Positions 47,619-52,713 of a DNA stretch of 64,000 bases are shown here, in pieces. The stretch comes from Promethearchaeota archaeon (GTDB taxonomy: Archaea; Asgardarchaeota; Lokiarchaeia; Sigyniarchaeales; SOKP01). Location: contig JAHPZE010000005.1 of NCBI GenBank assembly GCA_019058365.1, forward strand, positions 1-64,000. Reading direction: 5' to 3'. Position numbers and translations under genes: made by a program. The notes under the pieces were generated by a model. The model saw only the letters and a program-made list of their open reading frames with translations, did no database searches and had not been told where the DNA came from. Each line of letters starts with the position of its first letter. The first letter of the stretch is position 1.

Positions 47619-48803
47619 ATGGATTTTTCCTTAACTGAAAAGCAAAAAATGTTAAAAAAAATAACGAGAGATTTTGCTGAGGAATATATTATACCTGTAG
47701 CAAAGGAAAGCGATGAAAAACAAGAATTAAATGAGACTACATTCAAAAAAATGCAAGAAATGAATTTTTTTGGAGGATGTCTTCCAGAAGAATATGGAGG
47801 AGCAGGGCTTCACAATGATACAATAGGCTTTAGCATTATTATTGAAGAAATTGGTCGTGCTGATGCGGCATGGGGAATTGTCATTGCTGTGCATAATGGA
47901 GTTGCAGCATACCCTATTTATAAATTTGGAACTGAAGACCAAAAACAAAGATTTTTAGAAGATCTTGCGAAAGGTAACAAAGTAGGAGCTTTTTGTTTAA
48001 CCGAAGCGAATGCAGGTTCTGATGCGGGAGGAGTTCAATTAACCGCAGTTAAAGATGGAGATGAATATATTTTGAATGGTACTAAAATATTTGCCACATC
48101 TGGAGGTATTGCTAAAACATTGTTAGTTGTAGCTAAAACAGGAGAAAAAGACAGTAGAAGACAGATGACTGTATTTATTGTAGATGGAGATACCCCTGGT
48201 TATTCTGTTGGAGTAAAAGAGGATAAATTAGGTGTAAGAGCTTCAAATACTTCAGAACTTGTATTCGAAGATGTACGAGTACCCCAAGAAAATATTTTAG
48301 GAAAAGATGGAGAAGGTTTTAAGATGGCAATGAAAATCTTAGATTTTGGAAGGATAGGCATTGCTGCTCAATGTGTGGGTCTAGGGCAAGCTGCATTAGA
48401 GGCTTCAGTTAAATATTCAAATGAAAGAGTCCAATTTGGAAAACCTATAGGGAGATTTCAGGGAGTACAATGGAAGATAGCGGATATGGCATGTGCTGTG
48501 GAGTCAGCTCGTTTATTCACATATAAAGCAGCTTATTTACATGATAAGGGAGAAGATTTTGGAATGGCTAGTTCAATGGCAAAATTAGTAGCCTCTGAAG
48601 CTGCAATGCAAGCAGCTCATGGAGCTGTTCAAATCCATGGAGGTTATGGTCTAATGAAAGCATATCCCGTAGAAAGATATTTCCGAGATGCCAAGATGGG
48701 TGATTATACAGCTATCTCAGCTGTGTAGCCAAAAATTTATGAGGGCACCTCTGAAATTCAAAGACTAGTAATTGCGGGAAATTTATTAAGAAAAGGTTTC
48801 TAA
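47619..48803 (+). CDS. Acyl-CoA dehydrogenase (butyryl-CoA DH-like), split: join(47619..48703,48734..48803), 384 aa if spliced
   Basis: FCLTEANAGSD, NGTKIF, GRIGIAAQ, RVQFGKPI, QIHGGYG and ERYFRDAK. The missing IYEGTSEIQRLVIAGNLL continues in frame after a 30-nt insert. Confidence 0.93.
48704..48733 (+). other. Putative 30-nt bulge-helix-bulge micro-intron in mRNA
   Basis: Inner 9-bp hairpin 48705-48713/48719-48727. Bulges GA|T (48702-04) and AA|A (48732-34). Central GGGT/GCCA with one G-A mismatch. Outer AGAT/ATTT. Excision regenerates GAA (Glu) and removes the TAG. Confidence 0.75.
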
Positions 48804-48821
48804 TATTAAACCTTTTTTTTT
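48791..48821 (+). terminator. Hairpin plus U-tract at the true end of the acyl-CoA dehydrogenase gene
   Basis: AAAAGGTTT...AAACCTTTT inverted repeat running into a T tract, spanning the TAA at 48801-48803. Confidence 0.55.
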
Positions 48822-49118
48822 CTTATTTATTAATTTGTATATAAAGTTCAATTTTTAGAGAACAAGATTTAGAAAATTGGAGGGCCTTTTTAAAGAATAA
48901 TTTATATGAAAATATAACTTTGAGCATAAATGAGAAATCATTAATCATTGAGACTATCAAGAAAGATAAGCTCGATAAGGATGATAAAAAACAACTTATC
49001 TATATTAAGCAAACTTCCAACAGAAGACTTGATTTCTTTATTAGGAAATGATTTTAAACACCACATACAAAAATAAATTAAATGGGGTTGGAATTTTGAT
49101 TCAGCGGTTAAGAAACTA

Positions 49119-50567
49119 ATGATACAAAATTTTTTAAATACTACAGATCTAATTTCAAATTTAGGCGAAAATGATTTAACTTCAGAATTAATCGGAATTT
49201 TGCTAGGAGATGGTAATTTGTTTTCTAAAAATTATCAAAATCAATTAGATATATCATTAAATCGCATAGATGACCCAAAATACGTATCTTATGTAAAAAA
49301 TTTAATGGAAACACTACTTAATACAGAAATTAAGATAAGCAAACAAAAAGGGAAAGCGATTAGTCTAAGAGTATATAGTAAATTAATTATTAAAACTCTA
49401 GTAAATTTAGGATTAAAAGTTGGAAATAAAGTAAAAAATCAAGTGGGAACTCCTGATTTTATATTTAAAAATATATCTTTCATTATTAGGTGTTTAAAAG
49501 GCTTATTTGATACTGATGGGAGCATAAATGTAGATAATAAAAGAGATATACGATTATCATTTCAAAATTGCTCTAAAACATTAGTAGAGGATTTCTATAG
49601 AATGTGTCTAGCATTAGATATAATCCCATCACCAACAATTAGATATGATGAAAAAAGAGTTGCTTGGAGGGTTGATGTTGCAAAGAAAGATTCTATTTTA
49701 AAATTTTTCCAAATCATCAAACCTGAGAAATTAAAAGAACCCTTTAGGCGAATTTGGATCGCTTCAAAATTAATTTACCTAAATTCTTCTGAAGCTGAGC
49801 AACAAAGAATACGTAATAAAATAAAAATATGGATAAAGCAAAATAACAAAAAAATATTTAAATATTCAAAGAAAAATGCCTTTTTTTTAAAAGATACGTG
49901 CGAAAAGACATTAGGTATTACTATAGATAATGATTTAATCAACAAAACTATTTCAAAGGTCTTAGATCTCGAGAAATATATGTATGATGAATCTAGAGCT
50001 GAACATTTAAAGGTTTTATATGAAAAACTTAGGTCTACACTTAGAATTGTTGAATATTTAATAGATCAAGGAGAAGTTAACATACCACATAGACAGACAA
50101 TTATAGCACATCTAAAAAAATATTTTAAAGAAAAAAATCTTGATTATCAGAAATGGCTAAATGAGAATCCGAAAATGAGGATTGGAATAAATGAGGATAA
50201 TCAGATCCATGTCTTTCCAAATGAGCTACGTAATATTCTTAATGAAATAATTTGTAGAATCTTAATAAAATATAAAAATAAAATTTCTGAGACTAAAATT
50301 ATTAAGTTGTTAAAAGAAGAATTTGAAAATCAAGATTTAATCATAATGAATTGGTTACTTAACAGTACTAAATATAATAAGCCAACTTATCAATATTTAA
50401 ATAATTTAATCTTCCTTAATAAGAAATTGATTGAAAATTATATTAATAAAGAAAAAACAAATATTACATTATTATCAAAAGATCCATTTGTCCCATTTGA
50501 TAGAAGAACAATAACATTAATGGTTGATCATTTAATTAAGATTGGAATTTTAAAACATGATGAATAA
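49119..50567 (+). mobile_element. Free-standing double-motif LAGLIDADG homing endonuclease gene with long C-terminal extension
   Basis: ELIGILLGDG and CLKGLFDTDG motifs, plus intein-type L..LGL..G.K and ..F.N.S..L blocks. No intein splicing termini. Inserted between acd and etfB. Confidence 0.88.
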
Positions 50568-50693
50568 CAATAATTTAATTTTTTCTCAATTTTTTATTTT
50601 GTTATCGGAAAATTTATTTTTTTAAAAATTTTTATTCCTTTTAAAACAAATTATATGATTTTTGAGTTGAGGTAATAAGGTAGTGATTTCGGA

Positions 50694-51500
50694 TTGAAAG
50701 TTTTTGTGTGTATTAAACAAGTACCAGGGGTTTCAGAAGTAAAAATCGACCCAAACACTAATACACTTGTAAGAGAAGGTGTCCTATCAATACTTAATCC
50801 GAATGATCGAAATGCTCTTGAATTAGCTTTAATACTTAAGGAAAAACAAAGTTCAGAAGTTATAGCATTAAGCATGGGCCCCCCTCAAGCAGAAGAAATA
50901 TTACGCGAAGCTTTAGCAATGGGAGTAGATAGAGGGGTTTTATTAAGCGATAAAGCTTTTGCTGGGGCAGATACTTTAGCTACATCACACACTCTTGCTT
51001 TAGCAATTAAAAAGATATTAAAAGAATCTAATTCAGAAGAAAAATACATTATAATCTGCGGTGCTCAGGCGATAGATGGAGATACTGGTCAAGTACCACC
51101 AGAATTAGCAGAAGAATTGGGAATTCCGCAAATAACTTATGTTCAGAATGTTGAATTAAGTGAAGATAAAATTATCGCAGAGAGAAAATTTAGAGCTACT
51201 GAGATTGTCATTATTGAAACTAATTTACCTGCATTAATTTCAGTATTAACCGATATAAATAAACCTAGATATCCTAGTATGTCGGGAATTATGAAAGCCT
51301 ATGAAAAAGCAAATGTAATATATTTAGATTCAAATGCAATAAATGCAGATAAATCTAAAATTGGCTTAAATGGTTCTATGACTGAAGTCAGGAAAATTTT
51401 CATTCCTAAAAGAAAGGTAAACCCAATCATGTTAGAAGGGTCCACTGAAGAAGTTGTTCAAAATTTATGTCAACATTTAAAAGAGGATAAAATTTTTTAA
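50694..51500 (+). CDS. etfB: Electron transfer flavoprotein beta subunit
   Basis: VCIKQVP, NPND..ALE, SMGPP, AGADTLAT and QAIDGDTGQV. Confidence 0.96.
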   Translation: MKVFVCIKQVPGVSEVKIDPNTNTLVREGVLSILNPNDRNALELALILKEKQSSEVIALSMGPPQAEEILREALAMGVDRGVLLSDKAFAGADTLATSHTLALAIKKILKESNSEEKYIIICGAQAIDGDTGQVPPELAEELGIPQITYVQNVELSEDKIIAERKFRATEIVIIETNLPALISVLTDINKPRYPSMSGIMKAYEKANVIYLDSNAINADKSKIGLNGSMTEVRKIFIPKRKVNPIMLEGSTEEVVQNLCQHLKEDKIF

Positions 51501-51513
51501 GAGGATTATTCAT

Positions 51514-52713
51514 TTGAGTATAATAATTGATGAGGAATTGTGTACTGGGTGCGCTAGCTGTAAGGAGAGTTGCATTTATGGAGCTATTGAATTAGAAAAC
51601 AATATAGCAAAGGTTCTACCTAATTGTACATTATGTGGAGCATGTGTAGAAACTTGTCCCGAAGAAGCAATTTCATTGGAACGGGGTGACGTTAAAGCTC
51701 AAAAAATGGATCTCTCCCTATTTAAAGGCGTTTGGATTATTGCAGAACATTACAATAAAAAAATTAATAATGTTTCATTACAACTACTAAGTAAAGGACG
51801 AGAATTAGCTGATATCTTAAAAGTAAATTTATCACTTATTATATTAGGAGCTAGTTTCGATGATAAATTAGAAGAGCTTAGCCTATATGGAATGGATGAG
51901 ATCATATATATTAAATCACCGATTTTGAAGGATTACTATTCAGATTTATATACAAAAGTAATTACAGAATTAGTATTAGAAAACAAACCTGAAATTATAT
52001 TAATTGGGGCTACCCCTACCGGAAGAGATTTTGCCCCTAGAGTGGCAAAAAGACTTAATGCTGGGTTAACAGCAGACTGTACGGGATTAGAGATAGATCT
52101 TGAAGCAGGAAATCTACTTCAAACTCGTCCAACATATGGTGGAGCGATTATGGCAACTATTAGAACACCTTCTAGTAGACCACAAATGGCAACTGTAAGA
52201 GCTGGCATTTTTAGTATGCCTGAAAAAGTGAAAAAAAAGGTAAATATTAGGAAAATTGAGTATGAATTTGAAGAGAAAGATTCAGTTTCAAAAATTGTAA
52301 AAGTAATAAGTAAAACAAAAACCAATGTTAACCTTGAGGATGCTAAAATTATAGTTGCTGGAGGGCGTGGTGTAGGTTCCAGAGAAGGATTTCGAGTTAT
52401 AGAAAAATTAGCAGAAGTTTTAGATGCTGAACTGGGAGGATCCAGGATAACTGTGGAATTAAATTGGTTAGATCCAGATAGACAAATAGGTCAGACAGGT
52501 AAAACCGTAACTCCAAAACTATATATTGCTTGTGGAATCTCTGGTGCGATTCAACATATAGTTGGAATGGAAAATTCAGAAATTGTTGTTGCAATAAATA
52601 AAGACCCTAATGCTCCGATATTTAATTGGTCGCATTATGGTATTGTTGGAGATCTTCATGAAATTATACCAGTTTTAATAGAGGAGATTAAAAAGATTAA
52701 AGTGGATGAATAG
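51514..52713 (+). CDS. etfA: Electron transfer flavoprotein alpha subunit with N-terminal 2x[4Fe-4S] ferredoxin domain
   Basis: CTGCASC..SC and CTLCGAC..CP, then GLTADCT, QIGQTGK and GISGAIQH. Confidence 0.96.
   Translation: MSIIIDEELCTGCASCKESCIYGAIELENNIAKVLPNCTLCGACVETCPEEAISLERGDVKAQKMDLSLFKGVWIIAEHYNKKINNVSLQLLSKGRELADILKVNLSLIILGASFDDKLEELSLYGMDEIIYIKSPILKDYYSDLYTKVITELVLENKPEIILIGATPTGRDFAPRVAKRLNAGLTADCTGLEIDLEAGNLLQTRPTYGGAIMATIRTPSSRPQMATVRAGIFSMPEKVKKKVNIRKIEYEFEEKDSVSKIVKVISKTKTNVNLEDAKIIVAGGRGVGSREGFRVIEKLAEVLDAELGGSRITVELNWLDPDRQIGQTGKTVTPKLYIACGISGAIQHIVGMENSEIVVAINKDPNAPIFNWSHYGIVGDLHEIIPVLIEEIKKIKVDE

What the first reader, a model, noticed from the sequence alone, without database searches (positions are those of the whole stretch)
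48694..48738. 30-nt relaxed bulge-helix-bulge intron just before the catalytic Glu of acyl-CoA dehydrogenase
Seen: the ORF ends ...RDAKMG-DYTAISAV*, but IYEGTSEIQRLVIAGNLLRKGF* resumes in the same frame at 48735 with no sign of decay. The insert folds as inner helix TATACAGCT/AGCTGTGTA with a 5-nt loop, 3-nt bulge GAT, central GGGT/GCCA (U-G, G-C, G-C, G-A mismatch), 3-nt bulge AAA and outer AGAT/ATTT. Established: the archaeal splicing endonuclease cuts after the second nucleotide of each bulge. Applying that rule removes exactly 48704-48733 and yields GGT GAA ATT (G-E-I) and a 384-aa protein. The YEG Glu is the catalytic base of short/medium-chain ACADs, so the unspliced product should be inactive. 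mRNA introns in archaea are known mainly from crenarchaeal cbf5. One in a catabolic gene of a probable Asgard archaeon would bear on intron evolution and could make beta-oxidation dependent on splicing.
Basis: partly seen in the sequence, partly recalled or inferred. Interest (0 to 1): 0.92.

Follow-up and report, generated by a model that had tools for sequence, protein, structure and literature searches.

The report
Mobile tRNA-type mini-intron in Asgard dehydrogenase
A 30-base hairpin shaped like a tRNA intron splits an acyl-CoA dehydrogenase gene of an Asgard archaeon just before its catalytic residue; related genomes show that it must be cut out of the mRNA (in the papers I could search, shown inside an archaeal coding sequence only for cbf5) and that it probably spreads together with a neighbouring DNA-cutting 'homing' gene.

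Summary
Confirmed. Window 48704-48733 is a 30-nt insert with a stop codon inside the Glu362 codon, three codons before the catalytic Glu365, in the acd gene of a Promethearchaeia (Lokiarchaeia) archaeon. About 120 orthologous copies lack it. Fifteen alleles carry a 30-31-nt insert at the same phosphodiester. Only the bulge-helix-bulge (BHB) cut register restores the invariant EIYEG in all 15. The hairpin covaries, including exon-intron compensation in the central helix. One allele is 31 nt and frameshifting, which argues strongly against readthrough or bypass. Exon 2 stays under purifying selection, and the host encodes EndA (two paralogues) and RtcB. No RNA run was listed, so splicing is inferred (about 0.9). 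The intron is patchy on the gene tree, and the endonuclease was never seen beside an intronless allele. This suggests collaborative homing (about 0.55). 'Beta-oxidation depends on splicing' is overstated. The scan reported the same kind of intron and cassette before on other DNA, including this genome.

The parts
47619..48703 (+). acd exon 1 (codons 1-361 plus GA of Glu362), SCAD/Bcd-type acyl-CoA dehydrogenase
48704..48733 (+). 30-nt BHB mini-intron; in-frame TAG at 48726-48728
48698..48731 (+). central helix H: exon GGGT 48698-48701 with intron GCCA 48728-48731 (3/4 pairs; 4/4 in 7 of 15 alleles)
48702..48704 (+). 5' bulge GA^T; cut after 48703
   Evidence: sequence; register test
48732..48734 (+). 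3' bulge AA^A; cut after 48733
   Evidence: sequence; register test
48705..48727 (+). intron helix h' (9 bp, 5-nt loop) with compensatory changes across alleles
48685..48751 (+). exon-exon helices: h 48694-97/48735-38 and an outer extension 48685-92/48744-51. The extension uses the Gly-Thr-Ser codons GGY ACC TCK, present in all 13 intron alleles counted and rare in intronless ones
48734..48803 (+). acd exon 2 (A of Glu362, then IYEG...KGF*); catalytic Glu365 codon at 48741-48743
48920..49118 (+). decayed N-terminal extension of the endonuclease (frameshift and stop relative to L042 and G031, where it is open)
49119..50567 (+). free-standing double-motif LAGLIDADG endonuclease gene, 482 aa, both motif aspartates present
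48704..50568 (+). block absent from or replaced in the intronless relative G005 (homology stops at 48703 and resumes at 50569): intron + exon 2 + endonuclease
50694..51500 (+). etfB (follows acd directly in most intronless relatives)
51514..52713 (+). etfA with N-terminal 2x[4Fe-4S] ferredoxin domain

Best explanation
The insert is a tRNA-type (BHB) intron in the acd mRNA. The transcript folds into h-bulge-H-bulge-h'. The host two-subunit EndA cuts after G-A 48703 and after A-A 48733, and RtcB joins the exons to rebuild GAA (Glu362), so that the C-terminal helix and the catalytic Glu365 are translated. Unspliced RNA gives a dead 369-aa product ending at the intron's TAG. Shown: the DNA anatomy, exact boundaries, covariation, selection on exon 2, and the presence of EndA and RtcB. 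Inferred: cleavage and ligation in vivo. Second layer, inferred with about 0.55 confidence: the intron is a passenger and protector of a selfish cassette. The downstream LAGLIDADG nuclease cuts intronless acd alleles at or near the conserved MGEIYEG codons, repair copies intron + exon 2 + nuclease gene into the cut allele, and the intron makes the converted allele immune while splicing keeps it harmless.
For: Intronless orthologues all read MGEIYEG (26/26). 7 of 127 copies in 110 genomes have an in-frame stop, and all 7 carry an insert at this site. Only shift 0 gives EIYE in 15/15 alleles (-1: 12, +1: 12, others 0-1), and this register is the one the BHB rule predicts. Covariation: 94.6% of cells paired, 4 pairs with two-sided changes, 0/500 shuffles, slid controls 31-43%. 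Exon-intron compensation: where the exon codon became Ala (G099 GGCT/AGCT; G056 GGCC/GGCT), the intron strand changed to keep 4/4, whereas these exons pair only 1-3/4 with the Gly-allele introns. The G056 allele (another family) is 31 nt. Exon 2 pN/pS is 0.21 in intron alleles against 0.15 in intronless ones; exon 1 is 0.17 against 0.14. EndA x2 and RtcB are present. YEG aligns with SCAD/Bcd structures, and that Glu is the catalytic base (PMC11153573). Mobility: monophyly of intron alleles is rejected on nt 1-900 (p-AU 4e-63, at least 5 forced changes) but not on the 3' tract (p 0.27). G000 is 96-99% like intronless G005 over nt 211-840 but differs at 14/60 in the last bin, against 2/60 from G031. 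The nuclease sits next to acd in G000, G031, G099 (decayed), L042, L047, L035/L046 and L037, probably in G061, and in 0 of 25 intronless loci.
Against: No spliced transcript or circle has been seen. The window allele has a G.A mismatch in H, and the BHB fold is 1-7 kcal/mol above the predicted minimum in every allele tested. The alleles are related, so covariation counts are not independent events. For homing: several intron alleles have no adjacent nuclease (L038, G127, G056, L044); the independent-pairs test is 3:0 but underpowered (p 0.25); the cut site is not known; ordinary recombination or repeated loss by conversion can also give a patchy tree; and the G000 nuclease has a decayed N-terminal extension.
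Confidence: 0.9

Rival explanations
1. An inactivating hairpin insertion (MITE- or REP-like) that left a pseudogene or a truncated protein.
For: Stop codon in the insert; only a minority of alleles carry it; about 11 other ACAD paralogues in the genome could compensate.
Against: No second copy of the insert in the genome and no target duplication. Exon 1 has no stops and pN/pS 0.17, and exon 2 has pN/pS 0.21 across alleles down to about 70% identity. Covariation includes the exon-intron helix, which a dead insert would not maintain.
Confidence: 0.02
2. Translational recoding (stop readthrough, Pyl insertion, or T4 gene-60-like ribosomal bypass) of an unspliced mRNA.
For: Most alleles are 30 nt (in frame) with a hairpin and a stop.
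Against: The stop is TAG in some alleles and TAA in others. The 10 encoded residues vary and would sit in the catalytic loop. There are no matched take-off and landing codons (GAT vs AAA here). The G056 allele is 31 nt. In T-first alleles Glu362 is restored only by a cut inside the codon.
Confidence: 0.03
3. A real BHB intron that is an old, vertically inherited feature lost repeatedly (by conversion from intronless alleles or from spliced cDNA), with the nuclease an unrelated hitch-hiker; or one kept for regulation of acyl-CoA metabolism.
For: The same site is occupied in a second family (G056) and in three genera of this family. L018 is intronless yet has the intron-type exon-2 codons and is sister to the intron-bearing L038. 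Several intron alleles lack the nuclease.
Against: It needs loss in about 95% of copies. G000 and G031 have identical introns in gene bodies only 90% alike. The replaced block starts at the intron junction and ends at the nuclease stop. The nuclease is never beside an intronless allele. This rival shares the splicing mechanism and differs only in history.
Confidence: 0.35
4. Precise excision at the DNA level in part of the population restores the gene.
For: Intronless alleles exist in close relatives.
Against: No recombinase signature or terminal repeats. The conserved feature is an RNA fold with G-U pairs and EndA geometry.
Confidence: 0.01

Closest known systems
BHB intron of the cbf5 pre-mRNA in Desulfurococcales and Sulfolobales (Watanabe 2002; Yokobori 2009, PMC2738675)
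   Same: Short ORF-less intron in a coding sequence, at or beside a catalytic acidic residue, often with a relaxed BHB, in a host with a two-subunit EndA; cut between the second and third bulge nucleotide.
   Different: Asgard host and a metabolic gene. cbf5's intron was one ancestral gain with a few losses, whereas this one is patchy and linked to a free-standing LAGLIDADG gene. Splicing is shown for cbf5 and not here.
Asgard tRNA introns (Goswami et al., bioRxiv 10.64898/2026.10.13.758758)
   Same: Same motif classes (canonical, and 3-of-4 'relaxed'), similar size, repeated recent gains, (alpha-beta)2-type EndA.
   Different: That study covers tRNA genes only (no occurrence of 'mRNA') and found no general route of arrival. 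Here the host is an mRNA and a candidate route lies 385 bp away.
Haloferax HVO_1309 5'-UTR BHB intron (Schwarz 2020, PMC7714728)
   Same: mRNA substrate of the archaeal splicing endonuclease.
   Different: It lies in the untranslated leader, so the reading frame does not depend on it.
Collaborative / trans homing in phages (free-standing endonuclease plus ORF-less intron; T4 mobE-nrdB; reviewed in PMC2988022)
   Same: Free-standing homing endonuclease between conserved genes, an endonuclease-less intron in a critical codon of the neighbour, and a co-conversion tract.
   Different: Cellular archaeal chromosome, LAGLIDADG rather than HNH or GIY-YIG, and a host-spliced 30-nt BHB intron rather than a self-splicing group I intron. 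Cleavage is not tested here.

Membership tests
Archaeal BHB (EndA-type) intron | 4-bp central helix between exon and intron | tested here: met
   3/4 in the window allele (relaxed class by the rule), 4/4 in 7 of 15 alleles, with exon-intron compensation
Archaeal BHB (EndA-type) intron | two 3-nt bulges on opposite strands, flanked by h and h' helices | tested here: met
   h 4/4 in 15/15 alleles; h' 6-10 pairs; covariation 0/500 shuffles
Archaeal BHB (EndA-type) intron | cuts after the second bulge nucleotide restore the host molecule exactly | tested here: met
   only this register gives EIYE in 15/15 alleles
Archaeal BHB (EndA-type) intron | host encodes splicing endonuclease and RNA ligase | tested here: met
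   PF01974 x2 and PF01139 x1, over cut-off and without stops
Archaeal BHB (EndA-type) intron | spliced RNA, excised circle or in vitro cleavage | not testable with these tools
   no RNA holder was listed, so no reads could be laid
Group I / group II self-splicing intron | ribozyme core of some hundreds of nucleotides | tested here: not met
   30 nt, one hairpin
Collaborative homing cassette | free-standing homing endonuclease gene next to an ORF-less intron | tested here: met
   LAGLIDADG_3 E 2.5e-12, two motifs, starts 385 bp after the intron
Collaborative homing cassette | co-inheritance and co-conversion of intron, flank and endonuclease | tested here: inconclusive
   replaced block 48704-50568; nuclease at 0/25 intronless loci; tree conflict; but independent pairs 3:0, p 0.25, and nuclease-less intron alleles exist
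Collaborative homing cassette | endonuclease cuts the intronless allele; the intron confers immunity | not testable with these tools
   needs a cleavage assay
T4 gene 60-type translational bypass | matched take-off and landing codons with a stop right after take-off | tested here: not met
   GAT vs AAA; the stop is 8 codons in; a 31-nt allele exists
MITE / REP / palindromic element | multiple genomic copies, terminal repeats or target duplication | tested here: not met
   single copy; other matches of 19 nt or less are at chance level
SCAD/Bcd-type acyl-CoA dehydrogenase | catalytic Glu in the J/K loop (YEG) | tested here: met
   the intronless orthologue aligns end to end with 5ol2, 1jqi and 1buc, E down to 3e-121; role from PMC11153573; it lies in exon 2

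The most novel reading that the evidence does not exclude
In Lokiarchaeia, free-standing LAGLIDADG endonucleases drive ORF-less 30-nt BHB introns into conserved codons of ordinary protein genes (archaeal collaborative homing). The tRNA splicing machinery thereby doubles as a routine mRNA splicing system in the closest prokaryotic relatives of eukaryotes, and this acd cassette is a case caught spreading between species.
Probability: 0.55. Interest if true: 0.88.

Novelty: new variant of a known kind. Interest (0 to 1): 0.78.

Why it matters
In the papers searched, EndA splicing inside an archaeal coding sequence is shown for one gene only (cbf5). A well-supported case in an Asgard metabolic gene means that annotation pipelines truncate working genes in these genomes, and that mRNA splicing by tRNA machinery (the ancestor of TSEN/RtcB chemistry) is used in the lineage nearest to eukaryotes. 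A 2026 preprint calls the route by which BHB introns arrive in Asgard genomes the central open problem. The linked endonuclease gives a concrete, directly testable route: a defined enzyme, a defined intronless target and a defined immune allele.

Tried and rejected
RNA runs: no RNA holder was listed, so no reads could be laid; this is no evidence either way. L048 (Thermofontivivens, a bacterium) matched the pattern with a 40-nt gap, but it is a chance match inside a continuous ACAD gene. L036, L039-L041, L049, L050, L052 and most loose-pattern hits are likewise chance matches. A blind genome-wide BHB plus ORF-rescue scan recovered this site but gave no more candidates than the wrong-length controls (247 vs 219 and 214), so it cannot count introns in this AT-rich genome. 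A quick look for the radA intron reported earlier in this genome did not locate it; this is not a test of that claim. A source for the intron among the host's tRNA introns or repeats was not found. The sigma-70 promoter and terminator scan was at chance level and does not suit archaea. Five literature searches on archaeal mRNA introns found no paper on BHB introns in Asgard protein-coding genes; the library lacks most subscription journals. Structure and complex prediction were not run because they would not decide anything.

Full report
Observation. The acd ORF starts at 47619 and stops at TAG 48726-48728, and the ACAD C-terminus resumes in the same frame at 48735 and ends at 48803. Removing 48704-48733 yields a 384-aa protein ending ...RDAKMGEIYEGTSEIQR...KGF. 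The insert alone folds at z = -4.2, and shuffled inserts reach the same pairing at this junction in about 1 of 100,000 trials. The strict BHB conformation is about 4 kcal/mol above ViennaRNA's minimum, so enzyme binding would have to select it. The insert occurs once in the genome.

Host. The genome has many intron-containing tRNAs, two EndA catalytic-domain paralogues and one RtcB, all intact. This fits the (alpha-beta)2 enzyme reported for Asgard (bioRxiv 10.64898/2026.10.13.758758), the type credited with cutting relaxed motifs outside tRNA (PMC2738675).

Orthologues fix the boundaries. Twenty-six intronless orthologues all read MGEIYEG. Among 127 copies in 110 genomes of the class, 7 have an internal stop, and all 7 carry an insert after the same GA. 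With the metagenome contigs there are 15 alleles. Because the first and last intron bases vary, the register can be tested independently of structure: only the cut GA^...^A restores EIYE in all 15, while shifts of -1 and +1 fail in 3 each. That register is the one the endonuclease rule predicts (cut after the second base of each bulge).

The fold is conserved while the sequence drifts. Introns differ by 27% on average, yet 94.6% of cells pair, four pairs show two-sided changes (0/500 shuffles), and slid controls give 31-43% (related sequences, so not a probability). The strongest single point is exon-intron compensation. In G099 and G056 the exon codon is Ala instead of Gly, and the intron strand of H has changed to keep four pairs, while these exons pair only 1-3/4 with the Gly-allele introns. 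Seven of 15 alleles are canonical 4/4, so 'relaxed' describes this allele, not the site. G056, in another family, has a 31-nt frameshifting intron, which argues strongly against readthrough and bypass. The stop is TAG or TAA. All 13 intron alleles counted use GGY ACC TCK for Gly-Thr-Ser in exon 2, which extends the exon-exon stem, against 21/26 GGA and 20/26 AGY in intronless alleles. This may be selection for the fold or shared ancestry of the tract.

The gene is alive and needs exon 2. pN/pS is 0.21 (exon 2) and 0.17 (last 100 codons of exon 1) among intron alleles, against 0.15 and 0.14 among intronless ones, and no other stops occur. The intronless orthologue aligns end to end with 5ol2, rat SCAD (1jqi) and 1buc. 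The YEG Glu in the J/K loop is the catalytic base of this group (PMC11153573); here it is Glu365 in exon 2, while the split codon is Glu362. The best NCBIfam model is acryloyl-CoA reductase, below its cut-off, and the gene belongs to an acd-etfB-etfA cluster with a ferredoxin-fused EtfA. Whether it oxidises or reduces is open. With about 11 paralogues and the intron in about 5% of copies, the idea that splicing gates beta-oxidation has no support.

How it probably spread. The ORF at 49119-50567 is a double-motif LAGLIDADG protein. Against intronless G005, homology runs to 48703 and resumes at 50569, two bases after the nuclease stop; G005 has only its own exon 2 and about 27 bases in between. 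G000 is 96-99% identical to G005 over nt 211-840 of acd, but has 14 mismatches in the last 60 nt, against 2 with G031, whose intron is identical although its gene body is only 90% alike. On a tree of nt 1-900 the intron alleles are scattered (monophyly rejected, p-AU 4e-63); on the 3' tract monophyly is not rejected (p 0.27). Orthologues of this nuclease lie directly downstream of intron-bearing acd in G000, G031, L042, L047, in reverse orientation in L035/L046, L037 and G099 (decayed), and probably in G061 across a contig break. They were seen beside none of 25 intronless loci. All four genomes with both the orthologue and an assembled acd are among the 7 intron-bearers of 110 (nominal 6e-6, not independent). 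The phylogenetically honest test is 3:0, p 0.25. Some intron alleles lack the nuclease (L038, G127, G056, L044), as expected once a site is fixed and the nuclease decays; G000's own N-terminal extension is already frameshifted. This matches collaborative homing as described for phages (PMC2988022), but the cut site is unknown, so I hold it at about 0.55.

Comparison and novelty. It works like, and passes every testable membership feature of, an archaeal BHB intron; the splicing itself could not be tested (one search listed no RNA run). In print, splicing inside an archaeal coding sequence is confirmed for cbf5 only, with others 'predicted' (PMC2738675), plus a 5'-UTR case in Haloferax (PMC7714728). 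The 2026 Asgard census covers tRNA genes only and leaves the route of arrival open. My searches found no paper on Asgard mRNA BHB introns or on archaeal collaborative homing. The scan's own notes report many similar introns and nuclease cassettes on other DNA, in this genome too, and a first-reader note on this window pairs the same two parts. These are unchecked AI notes and were not counted as evidence.

Verdict. Real feature; spliced mRNA intron 0.9; new variant of a known kind; interest 0.78.

Noticed in passing
window:48920-49118: Decayed N-terminal extension of the LAGLIDADG gene. In G031 the nuclease is the C-terminal part of an 818-aa frame, and in G061 of an 871-aa frame. The N-terminal part of the G031 frame looks like a separate Loki repeat-type protein.
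   Followed up: partly
L031/L032/L043/L045, directly downstream of acd: A ~172-aa gene (resembling a CDC48 N-domain from memory, not tested) follows intron-bearing acd in G061, G063 and two contigs, with a remnant in G031; probably a passenger of the same cassette.
   Followed up: no
L018 (G022:C66): Intronless allele with the intron-type exon-2 codons GGC ACC TCT, sister to the intron-bearing L038: a candidate precise intron loss.
   Followed up: partly
L092 (G116:C165:5-1198): Reverse-oriented orthologue of the nuclease upstream of etfB at a contig end; its acd was not found with my query.
   Followed up: partly
all 30-nt alleles, intron positions 23-25: The T of the in-frame stop is invariant even where its partner is G (G-U rather than G-C), which hints at selection to keep a stop so that unspliced mRNA gives no full-length insertion protein.
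   Followed up: no
G000 whole genome: ARAGORN finds only 30 tRNAs, many with odd anticodons and introns, consistent with heavily interrupted tRNA genes; for example C46:185137-185241 carries a ~30-nt intron.
   Followed up: no
G000:C35:57540-57770 and C35:94711-94959: Two further LAGLIDADG domains, one inside a 1224-aa frame (possibly an intein) and one in a 221-aa frame.
   Followed up: no
window:51514-52713: EtfA with an N-terminal 2x[4Fe-4S] domain; a second acd/etfB/etfA-like set lies at C46:96057-99293.
   Followed up: partly
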